From: the human T2T-CHM13v2.0 reference genome, Homo sapiens
Assembly: GCF_009914755.1 (NCBI RefSeq)
Contig: NC_060947.1
Length of the DNA: 64,000 nt
Strand: one strand, 5' to 3'
In this document: positions 1-23,810 of the stretch, piece by piece
Layout of the letters: each line of letters begins with the position of its first letter
Position numbering within the stretch: the first letter of the stretch is position 1
The notes under the pieces: model-generated
The model's database searches: none
What the model was told of the DNA's origin: nothing
The model's input: the letters and a program-made list of their open reading frames with translations, nothing else
Position numbers and translations under genes: made by a program

Positions 1-2413
1 TTCTATAAGAATGTTAAATAGAGGCCCCCAATCTCTTTTGGCTTGAAAGGTTTCTGCTGAGAGGTCTGCTGTTAGTCTGATGGGCTTCCCTCTGTAGCTG
101 ACCTGGCGTTTCTCTCCAGCTGTCTTTAACAGTTTTTTTCTTTCATCTGATCTTGGAGAATCTGATAATTATGTCTTGGAGATGATCTTCTAGTGAAGTA
201 TCTTGCTAAAGTTCTCTGTATTAGCTTAATTTTAATGTTGGCCTCTCTAACTAGGTTGCAGAATTTCTCATGGATGATAACCTGAAATAAGTTTTCCAAA
301 TTGTTTCCATTCTCCCTATCTCTTTCAGGGATGCCAATGAGTTACAGATTTGGTCTGTTTACATAATCCCATATTTCTCAGAGGTTTTTTTCCATTCCTT
401 TCCATTCTTGTTTTTTTATTTTTCTCTGACTGTCATTTCAGAAAGGCAGTCTTCACGCTCTAAGATTCTTTCCTCGGCTTGGTCTATTCTGCTGTTAATA
501 CTTACAATTGCATTATGAAATTCTTGTAGTGTGTTTTTCAGCTGAATCAGTCAGTTATGTTCCTTTCAATACTGGCTATTTTGTCTGTCAGCTCCTGCAT
601 CATTTTATTGTGATTCTTAGCTTTCTTGAATTGGGTTTCAATGTTCTCCTGAATCTTGAGGATCTTTGTTCCTATCAATATTCTGAATGCTATTTCTGTC
701 ATTTCAGTCATTTCCATCTCTTTAAGAAACATTGCTGGGGAACTAATGTGGTCGTTTGGAGGAAAGAAGACACTCTGGCTTTTTGAAATGTCACACTTTT
801 GGCAATTGCTCTTTCTCATCTTTGTGGGCTGATTTTCCTTCAATCTTTGAAGTTGCTATTTTTGGATTTTTTTCCACCTTTTATGCTATTTCATGACCTT
901 AGGGGTTTGATTGTGGCATAAGTTTTTTCAATCAACTGGATTCATTTCTGGACGATTTTAGGGGGCTAAGACTTAGCTCAGGACTCCTAGACTGCATGTC
1001 CTAACTCTGGAGGACTAGTATCAGGCCCTGGCTTTGTTCTCTGGCCACTTAAGTTTAGGAACTTGCTGCACTAGAGGGGCCAAGGTGCTCCTAGAGCACT
1101 AGTCACAACAGTCCAATGGGCGGTGCCAACCAAAGTACTTCCTAGGGCAGTGGCAGCATGATTTATCTTTATTCGCCCATGGCAGGAGTGGCATCAGTGG
1201 CAGCATGATAAGGTGTCCACTTTTCAGCTGCAGTGAGGTGCTAGCAGGTGCCAGGATGCTGGTTGTCATGTGGGCATTTGCAGCAGCAGCATTGGCAGCG
1301 TGTCGTGGGGAAGCAGGGGGCCCCACTGGCATCTTTGTGTATGTTTGTGCTGGTGACAGTTTTAGCATAGTGGTGGGGCCCTGGTGGCCACAGGACTGTG
1401 TGAGCTCTTTGTGTGTGTTTATGGGTGGCGGTGGCTGCTCAGGGCCAGGGCAGGTCTCTGTTCTCTTTGCCTAGTTTCTGGCAGCAGCAGCGTCAACACA
1501 GGGGCAGGGTGCTGGTGGCAGGTAAGGCTAAGGGGCTCCATGTCCTCCAAAACTTCGATGGGAACGGCAGGGGCTGGCAGAAGTGGCATGGCAGGGTGCA
1601 CATCTGCCTGTGCACACACATGCCAGCAAAGTGATTTGGGAGGTGGCCATGGGCTAGTATCTGCAGGCAAGGTACCACTGGGGAGGCTGCAGTGGAAGGA
1701 GAGAATGTGCAGGCTGATATGTGTCTGTGGAGGCTGCTCTGCTGGAGCTCTCTGCTTGTCAGGTGTGGTCTGCCAGCACAGGAGCTATGATGCAGGCCAC
1801 CAAGAGGAACACCCCTTTTGGGCACCGGAGGCTGCACTGCAAGCACCCAGGGAGAGTCCAGCAGGCTGAGGGGTGTTCAGGTTGGACCAGTCCCATCTCA
1901 TGGCCAAGACCACCCTGCAGAGTTCATGTGTGACAATTCCTCTAGGGCTAAGTCTCCTATAGGAGTAAGTTGAGCCTAAGGGAATGGGTGTCCCTGGCTG
2001 TGCTCCACTACAGATGCTCCTGCATGAAACCCTCTGGGCTCCACACTGGCTGGAACTCTGCCCTGACCACTTCTGTAAGCAGCCGTCTTTGCCAACTCAA
2101 GTGTCCACAGTGGTCATGGGGACTCCTCTGGCCAGGATTCCAAAGGCCCATGGTTAGAGCAGGTTGCTCTTTGCTTCTTCAACTCACCCCTTCCCCAGGA
2201 GTTGTTGGGGGCTAGGAATGAGTCCTGGTGCATGGTAGCCCTGTGCAGGGTTCCCAGCTTCCTCCTTCTTTGGCCCGACATCTGTGTCTTCCCTACAACC
2301 GCTCTCAATGCCTTCCCTTTGAAGATCTGCTAAGAGTGCACCAGTCTTCCCAATGTCCCAATCCCTCAGTGGCAGATGTTCCCCCTGGCTGTGTCTAGTT
2401 GACCATCTTGATC
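1..2413 (-). mobile_element. L1 (L1PA15/16-like) 5' UTR and degenerate ORF1; element continues past the window start
   Basis: Minus ORF 547..843 (KSQSVFFPPNDHISSPAM...EMTEIAFRILIGTKILKIQE) matches the N-terminus of old L1PA ORF1p; GC-richer 5' UTR 850-2410; element begins (minus) gatcaagatggtcaactagacacagcc, the CAAGATGG YY1-type L1 start. Confidence 0.85.
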
Positions 2414-2540
2414 ACAGGTCTACTTTGCTCTCATAAACCCTGATAAAGCCTTGTTCCCAGTAGCCTCACAATGAGATGGAGAAGCCTCAGAGAACGCACC
2501 AATGTGGTTACTCCAGGGTGACAGAGGCGTGACTCACTTC

Positions 2541-3535
2541 AATTTTTGTTGTTGTCACAATTGCTTTTGAGGATCTAGCTATAAATTCTTTCCCAAGGCT
2601 GATGTCCAGAGTTGTGTTTCCTAGGTTTTCTTCTAGGATTCTTAAAGTTTGAAGTCTTACATTTAAATCTTTAATCCACCTTGAGTTACTTTTTTATATG
2701 GTGAAAGTTAGGGGTCCAGTTTTATTCTTCTGCATATGTCTAGCCAGCTATCCCAGCACCATTTATTGAAGACTGCTGTTTCCTCACTGCTAACTTTTAT
2801 TGACTTTGTCAAAGATCAGATGGCTGTTGGTGTGTGGGTTTATTTCTCAGCTCTCTATTCTGTTCCATTGGTTTATGTGTGTTTTTGTACCACTATCATG
2901 CTGTTTTGGTCACTGTAGCTTTGTAGTATAGTTTGAAGTCAGGTAGTGTGATGCCTCCAGCTTTGTTCTTTTTGCCTAGAAGTCCTTTGACTATTCTGGC
3001 TCTTTTTGGTTCCATATGAATTTTAGAATAGTTTCTTCCCAATTCTGTGAAAAGTGATGTTGGTCGTTTCACAGGAATAACGTCGAAATCTGTAGACTGC
3101 TTTGGGCAGTATGTCCATTTGAATGATATTGATTCTTCCAATTCATGAGCAAGGAATGTTTTTCCATTTGTTTGTGTCATCTACAACTTCTTTCAGCAGT
3201 GTTTTGTACATCTCCTTGTAGAGCTCTTTCATCTCCTTGGTTAGATGTATTCCTAGGTAATTTTTTTGTGGCTATTGTAAATGGGATTACTTCTTGATTT
3301 GGCTGTCAGCTTGACCATTATTTGTGTATAGAAATGGTACTGATTTTTTACAATGATTTTTGTATCCTGGAACTTTACTGAAGTCATTTATCAGTTCCAG
3401 GAGCCTTTTGGTGGACTCTTTAGGGTTTTTTAGGTATAGAATCATATTGTCTGTGTAGAGAGATAGCTTGACTTCTCTTTCTATTTGGATGCCTTTTTTT
3501 TCTTTCTCTTGCTGACTGATCTGGCTAGAACTTCC
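2541..3535 (-). mobile_element. L1 ORF2 internal fragment (L1PA15/16-like), truncated at both ends
   Basis: Minus ORFs give [25 protein letters not shown] and [35 protein letters not shown] (L1 RT/C-terminal region). Confidence 0.85.
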
Positions 3536-3539
3536 ATTA

Positions 3540-5965
3540 ATTCTGTGTTGAATGTAACAAGATAAGGATGCATATTGTAATCCACACAACAAATAAAAAA
3601 TAATAATATAAAAAGCTATTATTAAAAAGCCAATGGAGAAAACAGAATAAAATACAAAAAAAAAAAAACTCTCAACCCAAATGAAGACACAAAAGAAGGA
3701 TATGTATATAACAAATAACAGAGAGACCAAATAGAAAACAAAAAGAAAGTGGGTACACTTAAACACAGCCATGTCAATAATCCCACTAAATACACATGTA
3801 TTAAACACTCCAACAAAAGACAGAGGTTGATGAACTTGATTTAAAAATCAATATCCAATTATATGCTCTTAACAAATAATGCACTTAAAATACAAAACAC
3901 AGCTAGGTTGAAAGTACCAGGATGGAGGAGATATGCAATGCAAACAGTAGATGAGTATGGAAGAAATAACGGAGCTTCAAAATACATGAAGCAAAATTTT
4001 ACAAAGTTAAAAGAGAAATAGATAAATCCATAATCACAGCTGTAAATTTAAAATCTCTTCTATTAATTATTGACAAATGAAGCAGACAAATAAATTAGTA
4101 AGGATATATGTAGTATTTGAAAACTCCTATCAACCAAATTTGACCGACACCAAGGTAAACCAAATTCTGGGTCATAAAATGAGTTTCTATATATTTTAAA
4201 ATATTTAAATAGTGAAATATGTTCTCTGACCACAAAGAAATTAAATCAGAAACCAATAGCAAAAACATATCTAGAAGATCCCCAATACTTGGAAATTAGG
4301 GACATTCTTCTAAACAATTCATGGTTTAAAAAGAAATTAGAAGTGAAATTAAAGATATATCAAACTGCATAAGAAAACACAATATATCAAATTTTGTGAG
4401 ATGCAGCTTAAGCAGTCCTAAGTGGAAAATTTATAGCTTTATTTTTATATTAGAAAAGAAGAATGGTTTGAAGTGAATAATATAGGATTTCACCTGAAGG
4501 GGCTACAAATTACATTGAAATTGAATAGAAAAAATAAAATAGTAAAGATAAGGAACAGAAATAATTGAAATAGAAAAAGCCAAAATGATAGACAGAAATC
4601 AAGGAAGCTGAAGATAGTTTTTAAAGGAATAAAATTCATAAAAGCCTAGCTAAAAGTAATCAAGAAAAAAAACACAAAACATAAGTTACCAATTTCAGAA
4701 ATTATAGAGGTTGCATCGCTACACATGCTACACGCATTTCAAAACTATGAAGGGAATATTATGTACAACTTTATGCCAACAAATTTGACAATTTAGATGC
4801 AATGGAAAAAGTCTTTGAAAAACAATTTTCCAAAATAACATTAGACTGGACTTTTTGAATAGTGTAAATACCAAAGTTAATTCAAAACATAATAGCTTCT
4901 CAAAAGGAAAGTTTCAGGAATGGATGTCTTCACGGATGACTACTACCAAATACTTAAGGAGGAAACAATACCAATTTTAAACAAATTGAACATTACAAAA
5001 CATTGCAGACATAAATTAAACACCTAAATAAATGAAGAGATATACGTTCAGAAATTGAAGGTCACAAAGTTGTTAAGATTTCAATTCTCCCTATATTGAT
5101 TTATAAATTCAACACCGTCACAATGAAATCATAACAGGCTTTGACATTAATAGAAATGCTGATTCTAAAATTTTTAAGAACGTAGGGAGTGTAAATTAGT
5201 TCAACCATTGTGGAAGACAGTGTGGGGATTCCTCAAGGATCTAGAACTAGAAATACCATTTGACCCAGCCATCCCGTTACTGGGTAAGGATTATGAATCA
5301 TGCTACTATAAAGACACATGCACACGTATGTTTATTGCGGCACTATTCACAATAGCAAAGACTTGGAACCAACCCAAATGTCCAACAATGATAGACTGGA
5401 TTAAGAAAATGTGGCACATATACACCATGGAATACTATGCAGCCATAAAAAGGATGAGTTCATATCCTTTGTAGGGACATGGATGAAGCTGGAAACCATC
5501 ATTCTGAGCAAACTATCACAAGGACAGAAAACCAAACACTGCATGTTCTCACTCATAGATGGGAATTGAACAATGAGAACACTTGGACACAGGGTGGGGA
5601 GCATCACACACTGGGGCCTGTTGGGGGGTCGGGGGCTAGGGGAGGGATAGCATTAGGAGATATACCTAATGTAAATGACGAGTTAATGGGTGCAGCACAC
5701 CAACATGGCACATGTATACCTATGTATCAAACCTGCACGTTGTGCACTTGTACCCTAGAACTTAAAAGCATAATAATAATAAAAAAGAATGTATGAGGGA
5801 CCTAGAATAGCTGAAATGATCTTGTAAAAGAAGAGCAAAGTTGAATGAGCTGGGCTACCTAATTTTATGTCTTAGCATAAAATTGTGACATGACATGAAA
5901 TTAATCATGACAATGTGGTTTTGGCATAAGGATAGGCAAATAGATCAATGGAGCAGAATAGATGA
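3540..5965 (+). mobile_element. Old L1M fragment (inter-ORF/ORF2), interrupted by a younger L1
   Basis: A-rich degenerate ORF2-like sequence (atgttctctgaccaca, tatgccaacaaatttgacaattta, ttggcataaggataggcaaatagatcaatgg). Confidence 0.7.
5185..5785 (+). mobile_element. 5'-truncated L1PA (PA5/6-like) 3' end
   Basis: ORF2 C-terminus (LELEIPFDPAIPLLG...WNQPKCPTMIDWIKKMWHIYTMEYYAAIK), G-rich 3' UTR, A tail, short TSD aagaa(c/t)gta. Confidence 0.9.
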
Positions 5966-6745
<780 letters not shown>

Positions 6746-7089
6746 AATGGAAATTTGTTTGAGGGAAGTGGATTGATTCATATTTTGACTGAGAATTAAA
6801 TAAGGCCACTGTACCTTGGAGGGATTTTAGATAAGACATCTAAAATAGTAGGTCATGGTAAAGGGTGGGAGAGAACAGAATGAACCACTGAATGGGGGTG
6901 GCTGTAGGGAATGCCTTTAAGGAAACACCTTCTCCCTGCTATGTGACCCACCAGAATTGAACATGGGGAAATGATGAGGGTAGCAGGTCATTTTGAAATG
7001 GACCTTCGGGTAGTATTTGGGGTGGAAAAATCCCCTTTCTCCAACCACATTTTGGCCACCCCAGCAACACCACCCCCACAGAGGTATCA

Positions 7090-7243
7090 GCGCTTTGTGA
7101 TGTCCAAGCCACCCCAAGACTACCATTGGATGGGGTGCCCCATTCTGACCAAACAAAGCTGAAGGGTAGGGCTCCTCATTACCCAGGGGTGGGTATACAG
7201 AAGGAGGTCAGGAGCATAGGGTAGATTGTTGGGAGGCTTAAAT
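7090..7243 (+). promoter_or_regulatory. Putative proximal promoter/5' UTR of the two-exon basic-protein gene
   Basis: CRE-like TGATGTCC 7098-7105, inverted CCAAT (ATTGG) 7125-7129, SOX-like AACAAAG 7152-7158, TATA-like TATACAGA 7194-7201, ~50 nt before the ATG. Confidence 0.45.
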
Positions 7244-7387
7244 ATGGCTAAGGAGACCCACACACCAGTGAAGCCTAAAGAAAATATGAAACAACCAATT
7301 CTAAGCACGAAAAAGCCTACCCCAAGAACCAAAGAGAAGAAGGAAAAGAAGAACTCTTCTCAACAAAAGACCAACAAAAATGGCAAG
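7244..7387 (+). CDS. Exon 1 (48 codons) of a lysine-rich spermatid nuclear protein-like gene (CXorf51/transition protein 3-4/CYPT-like)
   Basis: Kozak aatATGG; open frame MAKETHTPVKPKENMKQPILSTKKPTPRTKEKKEKKNSSQQKTNKNGK ending exactly at phase-0 donor AAG|gtcaga. Confidence 0.75.
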
Positions 7388-7575
7388 GTCAGATGATCCT
7401 ATCCTTGTTCCTTCTTTTCTTCCCCCTCTATTCTCTCAAGACCCCTATCCTGTCCTTGCCTAGCACAACTCCCTTCCTCAGCCTGCACTCCTATTCATAA
7501 AGCTCCCCTTCCTATACAACCTCTTTCTCTTCCCCTAAACCAATGTCCTTCTAGCTCACTGTGTTGTGCTTCCAG
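7388..7575 (+). other. 188-nt GT-AG intron
   Basis: Donor gtcaga; abrupt switch from purine-rich exon to pyrimidine-rich sequence; branch-point CTCAC 7555-7559; acceptor tgcttccag|G. Confidence 0.75.
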
Positions 7576-7917
7576 GTGGAGAAGAAAATCATAAAGGTAA
7601 AAAAACCCCTTCAAAGGATTTCAAGAAAAAAAACTCAATCACCTCCTTCCTGCTCCAAAAAGCCTAGGATAACAATGAGACCAACAATATTTGTGTGTCA
7701 CCACAAGCAGAATAAGACACAACATAAAAATCGGAAGAGCAAGCACAAAAGACAACAGAAAATGAAAATCAGAAGAGCAAGCCCAGAAGCCGCTGGCAAA
7801 AGCAAACCATCCCAAGTAACCATCTCTGCTGCCAGTAAATGCAGAGCCTGGATCAGAAACGTACAACTAGCAACAGCAACTCTGGGGAATCACCAATCAC
7901 ATAAAGGCCAAAGCTGA
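7576..7917 (+). CDS. Exon 2 (113 codons + stop) of the lysine-rich two-exon gene; joined product 161 aa
   Basis: In frame with exon 1: VEKKIIKVKKPLQRISRKKTQSPPSCSKKPRITMRPTIFVCHHKQNKTQHKNRKSKHKRQQK...HKGQS*; corresponds to ORF-track 7561..7917. Confidence 0.75.
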   Translation: MEKKIIKVKKPLQRISRKKTQSPPSCSKKPRITMRPTIFVCHHKQNKTQHKNRKSKHKRQQKMKIRRASPEAAGKSKPSQVTISAASKCRAWIRNVQLATATLGNHQSHKGQS

Positions 7918-7950
7918 GCCCAACAGTGTTCCACCCATGCTGATGAATGC

Positions 7951-8003
7951 AATAAAATCAGCACAATGTAAAAGGATGATGTGGATGTTTGTCTGTAGTG
8001 GGG
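7951..8003 (+). terminator. Polyadenylation signal and downstream GT-rich element
   Basis: AATAAA at 7951-7956, 33 nt after the stop; gatgtggatgtttgtctgtagtgg follows at ~7978-8001. Confidence 0.7.
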
Positions 8004-8506
8004 AGGGGGTTAAGGAAGAAAAACTGCTAAGAGGGAGAGAGGCAGGGTCCTGTAAGGTTGGGGGCCAGACCAACAGGTATACAGTTAGCCATCGGGGGAT
8101 AAGGAGTGGGTGAGGACTAAGAAATGAAGACAAATCAACACTTTGCCCCACAGACAAGAAGAAAAAGGGCTTTGGCGTTTCTACATGTACTTAGGGTAGG
8201 TGTGGGTAGCAACATCAAGGTCTAAATTCCCAGAACCCAGTTAGGAGGAGGGTTTTATGTGTGATGTGTGTGGCAATAACACACCCCACAAAAAGACAAT
8301 AAAACCACCTCCAGGTCACCCGTGTCATAGTGGTGTATGTTGTACCCCACACTATGCTATAAGCAAGTAAAGGCCCTCAGGAGGACCCAAAACTCATCCT
8401 ATCAGGAGTCACTTTCAGCACCCTGATAGACAAATAGTAGAGTTTGGAGGCCACAAACCCAGCACTAATTAGGCCACTTTCTTGTTAAGTAGCTTAGGAT
8501 GGAGCA

Positions 8507-9940
8507 GTGTCCTACCAAGTGTGGGGGCAGTGGCAGAGGTCTGCCCACTTGCTGGCCCTAAAGAAAAACATTGTCTGCAGAGAATTTTAATATAAGAATA
8601 ATAAAACCCAGGAAAAGTCAGTCTTTTACTTACTAGCAGCAGATACAAGTTTTCAATTTTTCTCTCCCCAAATCCTCTTTTGATCTGAGTTGTGAAAGAT
8701 TGCTGTGGTTAAATTTAAGCTTGAATAAAATCAATGTAAGGTGCAAATTAGCTGATTTTTAATATTTATGTTTTAATAATCATTTTATTCTACAGGGAAG
8801 TTAATTTGGATAAATCCTTATTAAATAGTTGGTCCGAGACATAGGCTGTTCCTTTCTAAAGTAAGCTCTTAACAATTTGGAATTGTTTTGATGCAGGACA
8901 GGCAAGCCCCACACTTGGGGCTTAGGTGGGAGGGTTCTTGGCTTCACTCAGGAAAGAATTCAAAGGCAAGCCAGTGGTGTTAAACAGCAACTTTAATTGA
9001 AGCAGAAGTGTAGAGAGCAGTAGACGTACTGCTCCTGCTCCTTGCAGAGCAGGGCTGCCCCATACGCAGTGTCCCCAGAGTAGCAGCTCAGAGGCAGTTC
9101 TGCACTCATATTGATTCCCACTTTTAATTATATTCAAATTAAGGAGCAATTTATGCAGAAATTTCTAGGATGAGGGTGGTAACTTCCAGGTTGTCAGGTC
9201 ATTGCCATGGAAAGAGGCAGTAACTCCTGGGTGTTGCCATGGCAACGGTAAATTGACATGCCACATTGCTAGACAAGGCTTAAGGAAAGCTGCTTCTGCC
9301 CTAGACCTGGTTTAGCTAGTCCTCAATTGGGTCTGCTGTCCAAGCCCCGCCTCTGGAGTCAAGTCCTGCCTCCTACCTCAGTTTGAGCTTGCTTTGAGCA
9401 TACTTCCAGACTGCAGTCCCTGTGGTAATATATGACACATATGTCTACACTTTAAAAGTACACGAAATTAAAAATTATAGCATGTGATTATAAAGGCAAA
9501 GAACAACCACCTCAGCTCTGTGATTCTGTGTAATCACTTGCTTTTATTGGTGTCTAAATCGGTGAAACGAAGTGTTAAATTTAAGGAGTAAAATTTGGGG
9601 GGATAAAGACATTTTTATTACATTTGAAAATAAAATATTTTACTGAATTTGAACAATATACTCAAGCATGAAATGTATTCTTTAATTGCTCATTAATACT
9701 ACATAAAAATCAAAATGCTAAAATTTTATATCAGTTGCATATTTTAGTAGTTGCCTACATTTTACTTTTGCTTAATTTTCTTAAAATTGCCTTATGATTT
9801 TTACTATGACAACTATATGCAAAATGTTTTATAGAGAAAATTTACACTTTATTTTCTTTCTGGTTATAATTATTTGTGTTAATTCATGTGTATTACTAAA
9901 AATATTCTGTTGAGGTAGCGGCGTTAAAAATATACCTCAC
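8507..9940. mobile_element. Possible old hAT-Tip100 (Arthur-like) DNA transposon remnant, split by an LTR
   Basis: AT-rich degenerate block ending gcggcgttaaaaat, reminiscent of Arthur1 subterminal sequence; recall only. Confidence 0.3.
8889..9380 (-). mobile_element. ERV1 solo LTR (MER66-like)
   Basis: TG...CA termini, 4-bp TSD gttt (8885-8888 / 9381-9384); minus start tgaggtaggaggcaggacttgactccagaggcggggc. Confidence 0.85.
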
Positions 9941-10027
9941 AACTCAGTGTATATACTAAAAATCATTCAATTATGCACATTTATTAAGTGGTTGTACATT
10001 AAATGAATGAATTGTATGGCATGTAAT

Positions 10028-10090
10028 TATAGCTCAATTAAATTGGCTGTGTGTGTGTGTGTGAGTGTGTGTGTATGTGTGTGTGTGTGT
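10028..10090. repeat. (TG)n microsatellite, interrupted
   Basis: Direct read. Confidence 0.95.
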
Positions 10091-10334
10091 ATCCAGGTGA
10101 GAAGTATATTAATTGTGTCATGGAGGGAAATATTTTTTATGTAAAATCTCTCATAATTTGGCCCCAGTCTCTGGTATTTTTGTTTTTCTTTTTTTCTTTT
10201 TGTTTTAAACAGCTCTATTGAGGAATAATTAACCTACAAAAAAATTGCATGTTTAAAGTATGCAATTTGATCAGTTTCCACATACATAGACTTCTGGTAA
10301 ACCAACACCTCAATTAAAATACTGAACATATTCA

Positions 10335-12195
<1,861 letters not shown>

Positions 12196-22227: not shown

Positions 22228-23810
<1,583 letters not shown>

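What the first reader, a model, noticed from the sequence alone, without database searches (positions are those of the whole stretch)
7244..7956. Hidden intact two-exon gene encoding a 161-aa lysine-rich spermatid nuclear-type protein
Seen: in the only sizeable repeat-free island of the first 20 kb there is a complete gene grammar. It has Kozak aatATGG at 7244, a 48-codon exon, a phase-0 GT-AG intron of 188 nt with branch point and pyrimidine-rich body, a 113-codon exon, TGA at 7915-7917 and AATAAA at 7951. The joined protein has 35 Lys + 11 Arg against 6 Glu and no Asp (hand count). The ORF track shows only exon 2. From recall: the MAK-T--P-KP start and the K-I-KVKKPLQR-SRKK-QS----SKK block resemble human CXorf51A/B, pig/sheep spermatid transition proteins 3/4 and mouse CYPT, which are fast-evolving basic spermatid proteins. 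CXorf51 and most Cypt genes are X-linked. Inference: a coding paralogue that could be unannotated or filed as a non-coding RNA, with a possible role in spermatid chromatin or perinuclear theca.
Basis: partly seen in the sequence, partly recalled or inferred. Interest (0 to 1): 0.88.

Follow-up and report, generated by a model that had tools for sequence, protein, structure and literature searches.

The report
Likely missed human spermatid protein gene
A human X-chromosome gene filed as non-coding RNA, together with a nearby mirror-image twin, carries an intact reading frame for a very basic 161-residue protein related to CXorf51 and the "transition protein 3/4-like" sperm proteins, so it is probably an overlooked protein-coding gene.

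Summary
ATG is at 7244 and exon 1 has 48 codons. A 188-nt GT-AG phase-0 intron follows, then 113 codons, TGA at 7915-7917 and AATAAA at 7951. The protein has 35 K, 11 R, 6 E and 0 D. The splice sites equal those of the annotated lncRNA LOC728660.

The frame is real. Gorilla, siamang, langur, marmoset, capuchin and titi orthologues are deposited as proteins with the same exon join. A 25-residue C-terminal block is almost invariant while the rest evolves fast.

Profile searches and a profile-profile comparison (99%, E 2.6e-18) place it with proteins named CXorf51A-like or spermatid nuclear transition protein 3/4-like. Promoter, exon 1, intron position and intron DNA align with human CXorf51. In a tree it forms a separate, unnamed subfamily.

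New here:
- An intact inverted twin lies 198 kb away.
- The promoter and exon 1 also align with SPAN-X loci.

Not tested: testis expression, translation, DNA binding and the mouse CYPT link.

Verdict: probable unrecognised protein-coding gene pair, a new member of a known kind.

The parts
7092..7243 (+). Promoter and 5' leader shared with CXorf51 and SPAN-X loci. It holds ccattgg (7123-7129), ctgaccaaacaaag (7145-7158) and a TATA-like tataca (7194-7199).
   Evidence: Local alignment of the 200 nt upstream of the ATG: CXorf51 103/147 identical (z 34), SPAN-X locus at 139.898 Mb 91/125 (z 32), SPAN-X locus at 142.025 Mb 93/138 (z 23). In each case 0 of 1000 dinucleotide shuffles reached the score. 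Multiple alignment A6.
7198..7387 (+). Annotated exon 1 of LOC728660. The coding part is 7244-7387 (48 codons, Met1 to Lys48).
   Evidence: Hub annotation for the exon.. The first AUG of the RNA is the ORF start.
7388..7575 (+). Phase-0 GT-AG intron of 188 nt, homologous in place and in sequence to the CXorf51 intron.
   Evidence: A genome DNA search with 7140-7600 found four further X-linked loci, matched mainly or only over the intron at 70-77% identity.
7576..7917 (+). Coding part of exon 2: 113 codons (Val49 to Ser161) plus TGA at 7915-7917.
   Evidence: The orthologous proteins join K48|V49 in the same way.
7804..7878 (+). Codons 125-149, a constrained C-terminal block (KPSQVTISAASKCRAWIRNVQLATA). 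It overlaps the only predicted helix (residues 135-151), which carries the invariant Cys137 and Trp140.
   Evidence: 1 amino-acid change in 25 columns against 67 in 124 columns elsewhere on an 8-row primate tree; Poisson P 2e-5. Invariant K136, C137, A139, W140, R142 and A147 in 11 sequences. AlphaFold2 helix 135-151, mean pLDDT about 57-61 in that stretch.
7918..7967 (+). 3' UTR with AATAAA at 7951-7956, 11 nt before the annotated transcript end.
   Evidence: hub annotation.
7597..7710 (+). Possible in-frame alternative intron inside exon 2 (GT at 7597, AG at 7709-7710, 114 nt). It matches the 38 residues missing from the siamang isoform X2.
   Evidence: P0009 compared with P0004; sequence. 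It is a predicted isoform in another species only.
1..10349 (.). Arm A of an inverted segmental duplication of about 16 kb. It begins 5858 bases before the window. Arm B is chrX:138525573-138541318 and carries the intact twin gene on the minus strand: exon 1 at 138528672-138528529, exon 2 at 138528340-138527999.

Best explanation
LOC728660 is a real protein-coding gene, one of an inverted pair, that is mis-filed as lncRNA. Each copy is a compact two-exon X-linked gene. It has a SPANX/CXorf51-type promoter, a 46-nt leader as annotated, a 161-codon ORF from the first AUG, one short phase-0 intron and a canonical poly(A) signal.

The product is an 18-kDa protein with pI 11.4. About 120 N-terminal residues are lysine-rich, fast-evolving and predicted to be disordered. 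They are followed by a strongly constrained C-terminal helix that bears an invariant Cys-Arg-Ala-Trp motif.

The gene belongs to the eutherian X-linked family that databases label PF27987 (CXorf51A-like, spermatid nuclear transition protein 3/4-like). Within that family it sits in a separate, so far unnamed subfamily.

Most likely mechanism (inferred, not shown): it is transcribed after meiosis in spermatids from the shared promoter. The basic tail carries it into the nucleus and binds DNA or chromatin electrostatically during the histone-to-protamine transition. The conserved Cys/Trp helix gives a specific contact, either DNA stacking, a protein partner or a disulfide/zinc link.

My odds: coding and family membership about 0.8; spermatid expression about 0.75; DNA or chromatin binding about 0.5.
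For: Shown here:
1. The gene grammar is exact and equals the annotated splice sites (hub).
2. An ORF of 161 codons or more arose in 2 of 5000 shuffles of the spliced RNA, and the ORF starts at the first AUG.
3. Six non-human primate proteins of 144-161 aa share the same exon join. All 6 carry the precomputed label PF27987.1. A carnivore homologue (Gulo, 146 aa, 44% identical) keeps the same blocks.
4. There were 72 amino-acid changes on an 8-row primate tree and no premature stop within the first 151 codons (three monkey proteins end at residue 151). This CDS would predict 4.2-4.9 nonsense changes for that many missense changes, so P is about 0.01.
5. Constraint is strongly uneven: 1 change in 25 columns of the C-terminal block against 67 in 124 elsewhere, P 2e-5.
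6. The human twin, diverged 1.7% over about 9.9 kb, is also fully open. Its CDS differs at 2 of 486 bases, against 5 of 188 in the intron.
7. Other human family loci inspected carry stops: chrX 151.07, 149.77, 151.50, 143.57, 138.79, 139.94 and 11.48 Mb, and chr12 0.27 Mb.
8. Family link: profile hits, named hits, hhalign 99% with E 2.6e-18, and a DNA alignment with CXorf51 running from the promoter to mid exon 2.
9. The promoter and exon 1 align with SPAN-X loci.

From the literature:
- CXorf51 is called a testis-expressed family and sits in palindrome P17 (PMC8327919, passages).
- CXorf51 is named among transcripts of a human round-spermatid RNA survey (PMC3627604, passage).
- CXorf51A is disordered by NMR (PMC8481210, abstract and Biological context section). 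This matches the low-confidence AlphaFold2 model here, mean pLDDT 57.
Against: - RefSeq curators file the human gene as lncRNA (hub).
- I saw no positive expression or translation data. In the two papers that give values, LOC728660 was not detected in fibroblast, iPSC, retinal-organoid or motor-neuron RNA-seq. That fits testis restriction but does not show it.
- Outside the C-terminal block the protein changes at about the rate I would expect for unconstrained DNA. Copy A differs from gorilla at 8 of 161 residues and copy B at 6 of 161. Identity to New World monkeys is 76-79%.
- The window's copy has Ile63 where copy B and all 6 other primates have Asn. It also has Arg101 where copy B and the same 6 have Gln.
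- The low CDS divergence between the twins may reflect gene conversion, not selection. The arms are patchy, with 0 differences in 1496 aligned bases at window 3001-4500.
- The orthologue set is ascertained from protein databases, so species with broken copies would not appear.
- The C-terminus is unstable: 3 of the 6 non-human primate proteins end at residue 151.
- The local Pfam copy lacks PF27987, so the human protein was never scored against that model.
- Deletions removing one CXorf51 copy are common and are not associated with azoospermia or oligozoospermia, so family members may be dispensable.
Confidence: 0.62

Rival explanations
1. In humans the locus is only a transcribed relic: an lncRNA or a gene on its way to becoming a pseudogene. 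Its frame is still open because too little time has passed, or because gene conversion between the twins keeps restoring it. No functional protein is made.
For: - The RefSeq class is lncRNA (hub).
- Amino-acid divergence from gorilla is near neutral: 8 of 161 for copy A and 6 of 161 for copy B.
- Copy A has a derived Ile at the otherwise invariant Asn63.
- There is evidence of gene conversion between the arms.
- Most other human family loci are already broken.
- No expression or peptide evidence was seen.
Against: - Both copies are open over 161 codons.
- The frame is kept in every primate protein recovered and in a carnivore.
- The C-terminal block is almost invariant across about 8 primate rows.
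- The ORF starts at the first AUG and fills 84% of the RNA.
- The promoter blocks shared with CXorf51 and SPAN-X are intact.
Confidence: 0.2
2. The gene is coding and spermatid-expressed, but the protein is not a chromatin or DNA-binding transition protein. It acts instead at the nuclear periphery, in the perinuclear theca or nuclear envelope, as reported for SPANX and CYPT proteins. Another option is that it is a nucleolar or RNA-binding basic protein.
For: - The promoter and exon 1 are homologous to SPAN-X loci.
- The sister subfamily (P0024, P0045) scores just under the Pfam SPAN-X cut-off: 19 bits against 22, E 0.002. It gives hhalign 94.9% with SPAN-X exon 2.
- The three cysteines are invariant in primates. 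This could serve disulfide cross-linking as in theca proteins (inference).
- The locations of SPANX and CYPT proteins are recalled, not from a call.
Against: - The nearest named relatives carry transition-protein names.
- The composition, 29% Lys+Arg with pI 11.4, is typical of DNA-binding sperm basic proteins.
- The LOC728660 subfamily itself shows no significant profile match to SPAN-X: hhalign 5% and no Pfam hit.
- It lacks the acidic C-terminus seen in the SPAN-X translations.
Confidence: 0.25
3. The open frame is a chance product of A-rich, T-poor sequence, and the similarity to basic proteins is compositional only.
For: - The RNA is 43.5% A and 14.6% T, which lengthens random ORFs. The mean longest ORF in shuffles was 50 codons and the maximum 165.
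- Lys-rich low-complexity sequence can inflate profile scores.
Against: - Only 2 of 5000 shuffles reached 161 codons.
- Homology is also seen in non-coding DNA, where composition cannot explain it: the promoter (z 20-34) and the intron.
- The intron position and phase are identical.
- The conserved, non-basic C-terminal block is shared with a carnivore.
Confidence: 0.02

Closest known systems
Human CXorf51A/CXorf51B (108-aa basic disordered protein; testis-expressed inverted pair in X palindrome P17)
   Same: - Both are two-exon X-linked genes with a phase-0 intron at the homologous place.
- Promoter, exon 1, intron and the first half of exon 2 align at the DNA level.
- Both exist as convergent inverted duplicates.
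- Both encode basic proteins predicted or shown to be disordered (PMC8481210).
- hhalign between the LOC728660-type alignment and the CXorf51A/transition-protein-like alignment gave 99%, covering residues 1-103.
   Different: - LOC728660 is 161 aa and has an extra C-terminal module with the constrained Cys-Arg-Ala-Trp helix, which CXorf51 lacks.
- The core motif reads F-V-C-H-H-K instead of the F-G-H-Y-H-R-L type.
- The two fall in different clades, with 97/87 support for the split.
- The twin copies lie 198 kb apart and are about 98% identical. The CXorf51 pair is about 4.5 kb apart.
- CXorf51 is annotated as coding; LOC728660 is not.
Spermatid nuclear transition proteins 3 and 4 (isolated from boar and ram spermatids; names recalled, and seen here as automatic '-like' names and 'spermatid nuclear transition protein 3 [Equus caballus]')
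   Same: - Proteins with these names were returned by the family profile, and all of them carry PF27987.1.
- They share the N-terminal MAK-type start, the basic middle and the R/K-P-x-hydrophobic...H core.
- Boar TP4 is cited as a DNA-topology factor (Akama et al. 1999, seen only in reference lists).
   Different: - All named TP3/TP4-like proteins fall in the CXorf51-type clade, not the LOC728660 clade.
- I could not obtain the boar or ram sequences themselves, so direct comparison with the biochemically isolated proteins was not done.
- Rat 'TP4' is an unrelated HMGB4-like protein (PMC5036535, abstract in listing).
SPANX (SPAN-X, PF07458) genes of Xq27
   Same: - The upstream 125-140 nt, the leader, exon 1 and the donor site align (67-73% identity).
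- Both are two-exon, X-linked and occur in inverted or segmental duplications.
- The sister subfamily gives a near-threshold SPAN-X match.
   Different: - The LOC728660 protein does not match the SPAN-X model or profile (5%).
- SPAN-X loci start translation further downstream, or have lost the upstream ATG.
- SPAN-X exon 2 encodes an acidic tail, whereas LOC728660 is basic throughout.
Mouse CYPT (cysteine-rich perinuclear theca) family
   Same: These are X-linked, spermatid-expressed, fast-evolving small basic proteins. They are reported to share a promoter with SPANX, VCX/Y and CSAG (Hansen et al. 2008, seen only as paraphrased and listed in PMC8327908; the paper itself is not held).
   Different: No Cypt sequence could be reached with the tools, and none of the 44 hits is named Cypt. 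Relationship not tested.
Classical transition proteins TNP1/TNP2
   Same: Small, very basic spermatid nuclear proteins (established knowledge).
   Different: No Pfam match to any family, including the TNP models, at E up to 10. TNP1/TNP2 are autosomal and unrelated in sequence (recalled).

Membership tests
PF27987-labelled family (CXorf51A-like / spermatid nuclear transition protein 3/4-like) | Match to the family's Pfam model | not testable with these tools
   The local Pfam copy has no PF27987, and the single human exons hit nothing. Indirectly, 6 of 6 primate orthologues (76-95% identical to the human protein) carry the precomputed label PF27987.1.
PF27987-labelled family (CXorf51A-like / spermatid nuclear transition protein 3/4-like) | Significant profile similarity to named members | tested here: met
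   A primate-only profile hit P0020, P0022 and P0024 at E 7e-7, 2.8e-6 and 1.2e-4 in 1.84 billion proteins; these three carry PF27987.1. hhalign of A4 against A5 gave 99.0%, E 2.6e-18, over 96 columns.
PF27987-labelled family (CXorf51A-like / spermatid nuclear transition protein 3/4-like) | Same gene build: two coding exons with a phase-0 intron after the ...GK/IK codon near residue 44-48, and alignable intron and promoter | tested here: met
   Human CXorf51 locus read; DNA alignments.
PF27987-labelled family (CXorf51A-like / spermatid nuclear transition protein 3/4-like) | Core motif with invariant Pro and His (R/K-P-x-I/L-F/L-x-x-x-H) | tested here: met
   P84 and H91 are the only invariant columns in the 14-sequence alignment A2. 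The human exon 2 has RPTIFVCHH.
PF27987-labelled family (CXorf51A-like / spermatid nuclear transition protein 3/4-like) | X-linked and highly basic | tested here: met
   The window is on chrX (hub). The protein has 35 K + 11 R in 161 residues and pI 11.4.
PF27987-labelled family (CXorf51A-like / spermatid nuclear transition protein 3/4-like) | Testis or spermatid expression and presence of the protein in spermatid nuclei | not testable with these tools
   No expression data are reachable. The papers naming LOC728660 list it only as lncRNA or as not detected in somatic cells.
SPAN-X (PF07458) | Match to the Pfam SPAN-X model over its cut-off (22 bits) | tested here: not met
   No hit for the human exons or the 6 primate orthologues at E up to 10. 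hhalign of the LOC728660 clade against SPAN-X exon 2 gave 5%. Only the sister subfamily comes close, at 18.8-19.1 bits.
SPAN-X (PF07458) | Shared promoter, exon 1 and donor site | tested here: met
   91/125 and 93/138 identical, z 32 and 23, with 0 of 1000 shuffles reaching the score. Alignment A6.
Mouse CYPT | Sequence or profile similarity to Cypt proteins | not tested
   No Cypt sequence is available through the tools, and none of the 44 hits is named Cypt.
TNP1/TNP2 | Match to their Pfam models | tested here: not met
   No such family was reported at E up to 10.

The most novel reading that the evidence does not exclude
LOC728660 and its inverted twin are two unrecognised human protein-coding genes. 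They found a distinct eutherian subfamily of spermatid basic proteins, built from a lysine-rich disordered DNA-binding tail plus a constrained Cys-Arg-Ala-Trp helix. Through its shared promoter, exon 1 and splice site, this subfamily links the boar and ram 'transition proteins 3/4', CXorf51 and SPANX into one X-linked superfamily that diversified by swapping or rewriting exon 2.
Probability: 0.45. Interest if true: 0.68.

Novelty: new member of a known kind. Interest (0 to 1): 0.58.

Why it matters
If the frame is translated, the human protein catalogue lacks two genes. The second copy may not be annotated at all.

The minor transition proteins TP3/TP4 are usually treated as boar and ram curiosities. 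This gene would show that they have a wider human counterpart family than CXorf51 alone.

The gene sits in the SOX3 regulatory domain at Xq27.1, a hotspot for disease-causing insertions. Its class therefore affects how structural variants there are read.

The 98%-identical twin means that short reads and peptides map to both copies, which may explain why the gene was missed.

The promoter and exon 1 homology with SPAN-X offers a concrete route to trace how fast-evolving X-linked spermatid genes arise from a common 5' module.

Tried and rejected
- Pfam on the two human exon translations and on 6 orthologues gave nothing usable. There was one Presenilin hit at E 4.9. The family model named by the database (PF27987) is absent from the local library.
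- ESM Atlas with the gorilla orthologue and with P0023 gave no usable feature hits. Structure neighbours had TM 0.37 or less and were all unrelated bacterial or other families.
- AlphaFold2 on an 11-sequence alignment gave mean pLDDT 57 and pTM 0.15. There is no fold to search, so no fold search was run.
- Rfam over 6500-8600 gave only four plant-miRNA matches far under their cut-offs (23-28 bits against 62-75). They are caused by the purine-rich end of exon 1 pairing with the pyrimidine-rich intron start. Rejected as chance.
- The weak exon-2 hit at chrX:139655444 (E 0.3) was not recovered by any family protein at E up to 0.01. Treated as chance.
- The twin comparison as a test of selection: the CDS has 2 differences in 486 bases, against 1.7% overall. 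The arms also contain a 1.5-kb tract with no differences, so gene conversion cannot be separated from selection. I do not rest the case on this.
Hansen et al. 2008 is not held.
- Literature: LOC728660 occurs in 4 papers, always as a listed lncRNA or array probe. PF27987 occurs in 0 papers. NR_148935 brought no further paper. Of the 6 papers holding both SPANX and CXorf51, the 5 listed look like gene lists from their titles and abstract openings. I read a passage of only one, PMC3627604.
- Supplementary tables were not opened, and they may hold expression or ORF calls for this gene.
Full report
**Observation**

- ATG at 7244 sits in aaatATGG.
- There is a 48-codon first coding exon.
- A 188-nt GT-AG intron follows at 7388-7575.
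- The second coding exon has 113 codons and ends with TGA at 7915-7917.
- AATAAA is at 7951-7956.

Joined in a script, the protein has 161 residues, with 35 Lys, 11 Arg, 6 Glu and no Asp. Its pI is 11.4 and its mass 18.4 kDa.

The hub's annotation shows that the same two exon borders are those of the curated transcript NR_148935.1 of LOC728660, which is classed as lncRNA. The spliced RNA is therefore already known, and only its coding status is open.

The ORF begins at the first AUG of that 582-nt RNA and fills 486 nt of it. An ORF this long arose in 2 of 5000 dinucleotide shuffles.

**Is the frame real?**

A search of a named protein database with exon 2 returned six non-human primate proteins of 144-161 residues: gorilla, siamang, François' langur, marmoset, capuchin and titi. 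A shorter siamang isoform also came back. All six join exon 1 to exon 2 at the same K|V point, and all six carry a precomputed Pfam label, PF27987.1.

A profile of these six also found a wolverine protein (146 aa, 44% identical). In an exhaustive HMMER search of 1.84 billion representatives, the profile found 13 proteins at E up to 0.001. Five further database proteins (P0011, P0014, P0017, P0018, P0021) are gene predictions that read through the intron. I left them out of alignments.

On an 8-row primate tree (two human copies plus the six) there are 72 amino-acid changes by parsimony and no premature stop within the first 151 codons (three monkey proteins end at residue 151). From the ratio of stop-creating to missense single-base changes in this CDS (73:1081), 4.2-4.9 nonsense changes would be expected, so P is about 0.01.

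The changes are very unevenly spread. Residues 125-149 (KPSQVTISAASKCRAWIRNVQLATA) have 1 change in 25 columns, while the other 124 columns have 67 (Poisson P 2e-5). In the 11-sequence alignment that includes non-primates, C89, H91, T130, K136, C137, A139, W140, R142 and A147 are invariant.

This pattern is what a protein under selection shows. It is not what I would expect of a neutrally drifting RNA.

The limits are these:
- The orthologues come from protein databases, so broken copies would be invisible.
- Outside the block the protein changes at roughly the pace I would expect without constraint: 95% identity to gorilla and 76-79% to New World monkeys. The neutral expectation is my estimate, not a computed value.
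- The last ten or so residues are unstable, and 3 of 6 non-human primates end at residue 151.

**A twin**

The human assembly holds a second copy of exon 2 at chrX:138528002-138528340 on the minus strand. It lies in an inverted duplication with arms of about 16 kb: 138316142-138332349 against 138541318-138525573. About 193 kb lies between the arms, and they differ at 1.7% of 9855 aligned bases.

The twin gene is complete, with the same start, splice sites, stop and poly(A) signal. Its protein differs at two residues. At both, the twin has the residue found in the six other primates (Asn63, Gln101), and the window's copy has the derived one (Ile63, Arg101).

The CDS differs at 2 of 486 bases and the intron at 5 of 188. 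However, the arms also hold a 1496-base stretch with no difference (window 3001-4500). Gene conversion is therefore at work, and the low CDS divergence is not clean evidence of selection.

**Family**

The wider profile (14 sequences) returned 44 proteins, of which 40 bear PF27987.1. The other four are a siamang short isoform and three unnamed metagenome-derived reads. Sources name many of them 'CXorf51A-like', 'spermatid nuclear transition protein 4-like', 'spermatid nuclear transition protein 3-like' or 'spermatid nuclear transition protein 3 [Equus caballus]'.

Because that profile already contained three CXorf51-type rows, I made two disjoint alignments. One held 11 LOC728660-type rows and the other 16 CXorf51/TP-like rows. 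hhalign gave 99.0% and E 2.6e-18 over residues 1-103.

Evidence that does not depend on basic composition comes from the DNA. The marmoset CXorf51-type protein locates the human CXorf51 pair at chrX:145069023-145069533 (+) and 145074054-145074564 (-). That gene has the same build: exon 1, a phase-0 intron that starts gtgagatgatcc where LOC728660 has gtcagatgatcc, then exon 2. Promoter, exon 1, intron and the first half of exon 2 align with LOC728660.

A maximum-likelihood tree of 36 rows splits the family with 97/87 support.
- One side holds all CXorf51A-like and TP3/TP4-like names.
- The other holds the LOC728660 type (100/99) and a small sister group, mouse lemur P0024 and wolverine P0045.

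No protein in the LOC728660 clade has a descriptive name.

The gene is nevertheless a distinct subfamily whose mark is the C-terminal block. The local Pfam copy lacks PF27987, so the human protein itself was never scored with it.

**Other human family loci**

The following human loci resemble the family but contain stops. They show what unconstrained copies look like.
- chrX 151.07, 149.77 and 11.48 Mb, and an intronless copy at chr12 0.27 Mb.
- chrX 139.94 Mb.
- chrX 138.79 and 151.50 Mb.
- chrX 143.57 Mb.

**Link to SPAN-X**

A review passage cites Hansen et al. 2008 for a promoter shared by VCX/Y, SPANX, CSAG and mouse Cypt (PMC8327908). The paper itself is not held.

I located SPAN-X loci with the Pfam model and compared their upstream DNA with the 200 nt before the LOC728660 ATG.

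| Compared with | Identical / aligned | z |
|---|---|---|
| SPAN-X locus at 139.898 Mb | 91 / 125 | 32 |
| SPAN-X locus at 142.025 Mb | 93 / 138 | 23 |
| CXorf51 | 103 / 147 | 34 |

In each case 0 of 1000 shuffles reached the observed score.

The multiple alignment runs from a ccattgg box, through ctgaccaa(a/t)caaag and a ggtataca box, across exon 1 to the donor site at the same place. In two SPAN-X loci the ATGGCTAAGG start reads ATAGCTGTGG, and their ATG lies a few codons downstream of the Met15 codon of LOC728660 in the alignment.

At protein level only the sister subfamily approaches SPAN-X: Pfam 19 bits against a cut-off of 22 with E 0.002, and hhalign 94.9%. The LOC728660 clade does not (5%).

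I read this as a shared 5' gene module and a likely common origin, not as membership of SPAN-X.

**Structure and mechanism**

AlphaFold2 on the 11-row alignment gives mean pLDDT 57 and a single helix, residues 135-151, which is the conserved block. This agrees with NMR evidence that CXorf51A is disordered (PMC8481210).

What is shown:
- an intact, conserved, first-AUG ORF;
- family membership by profile and by gene structure;
- a promoter homologous to those of CXorf51 and SPAN-X.

What the literature adds: CXorf51 is called testis-expressed (PMC8327919) and is named among transcripts of a human round-spermatid RNA survey (PMC3627604).

What is inferred:
- post-meiotic transcription;
- nuclear import and electrostatic DNA or chromatin binding by the Lys-rich tail;
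- a specific role for the Cys/Trp helix.

That boar TP3/TP4 are biochemically isolated spermatid nuclear proteins is recalled. Only the title of Akama et al. 1999 was seen, in reference lists.

Points against:
- Curators class the gene as non-coding.
- No expression or peptide data were available to me.
- Common CXorf51 deletions show no link with azoospermia, so such genes may matter little individually.

**Known or new**

In the searchable papers LOC728660 appears four times, always as a listed lncRNA or array probe. PF27987 appears in none. Of the 6 papers holding both SPANX and CXorf51, the 5 listed look like gene lists from their titles and abstract openings. I read a passage of only one, PMC3627604. 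Supplements were not opened.

The family and the primate orthologues are already in databases, so this is a new member of a known kind. It is a probable mis-classified human gene with an overlooked twin, and it belongs to a subfamily nobody has described.

**Verdict**

I give coding status and family membership about 0.8, spermatid expression about 0.75 and chromatin binding about 0.5.

Noticed in passing
window 1-10349 (arm starts 5858 bases before the window) and chrX:138525573-138541318: An inverted segmental duplication of about 16 kb per arm with a spacer of about 193 kb. Overall divergence is 1.7%, but it is patchy: there are 0 differences in 1496 aligned bases at window 3001-4500, which points to recent gene conversion. 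Arm A also has an extra stretch of about 470 bases at 6203-6672, inside a masked repeat.
   Followed up: partly
chrX:138527999-138528672, minus strand (loci L002, L028): An intact twin of the gene. It keeps the residues shared by other primates (Asn63, Gln101) where the window's copy has Ile63 and Arg101. I could not see whether it is annotated.
   Followed up: partly
loci L017, L018, L019, L020, L021/L030, L029, L031, L032: Decayed relatives of the family with in-frame stops at chrX 151.07, 149.77, 139.94, 11.48, 138.79, 151.50 and 143.57 Mb, plus an intronless copy at chr12 0.27 Mb. The 138.79 Mb and 11.48 Mb relics resemble each other closely.
   Followed up: partly
window 7383-7577 against L029, L030, L031, L032: Among paralogues the short intron is the part best kept at the DNA level. 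A genome DNA search with 7140-7600 matched four other loci mainly or only over the intron, at 70-77% identity. I have no explanation for this. It might reflect a regulatory or splicing element.
   Followed up: no
window 7092-7243; L034, L042, L043: The promoter, leader, exon 1 and donor site are homologous to SPAN-X loci. Two SPAN-X loci have ATA where this gene has its ATG, and they start translation at an ATG a few codons downstream of this gene's Met15 codon in the alignment.
   Followed up: yes
window 7194-7199 against annotated transcript start 7198: The conserved TATA-like box overlaps the annotated 5' end of NR_148935.1. If the box is used, the true start would lie about 25-30 bases further on and the leader would be only about 20 nt.
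   Followed up: no
window 7597-7710: A GT...AG pair inside exon 2 would remove 38 codons in frame. It corresponds to the predicted siamang isoform X2 (P0009).
   Followed up: partly
window 7321-7440, minus strand: Sub-threshold Rfam matches to plant miRNA hairpins. The cause is the purine-rich end of exon 1 pairing with the pyrimidine-rich start of the intron. Taken as chance.
   Followed up: yes
protein P0012 (217 aa, 12 member sequences, no name): A database 'protein' from short unnamed contigs. It is this human-like locus read straight through the upstream region, exon 1 and the intron, with TGA read as Trp. It is a prediction artefact, not a gene product.
   Followed up: partly
window 22229-23424: HNRNPA3P3 pseudogene (hub annotation). 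Not examined.
   Followed up: no
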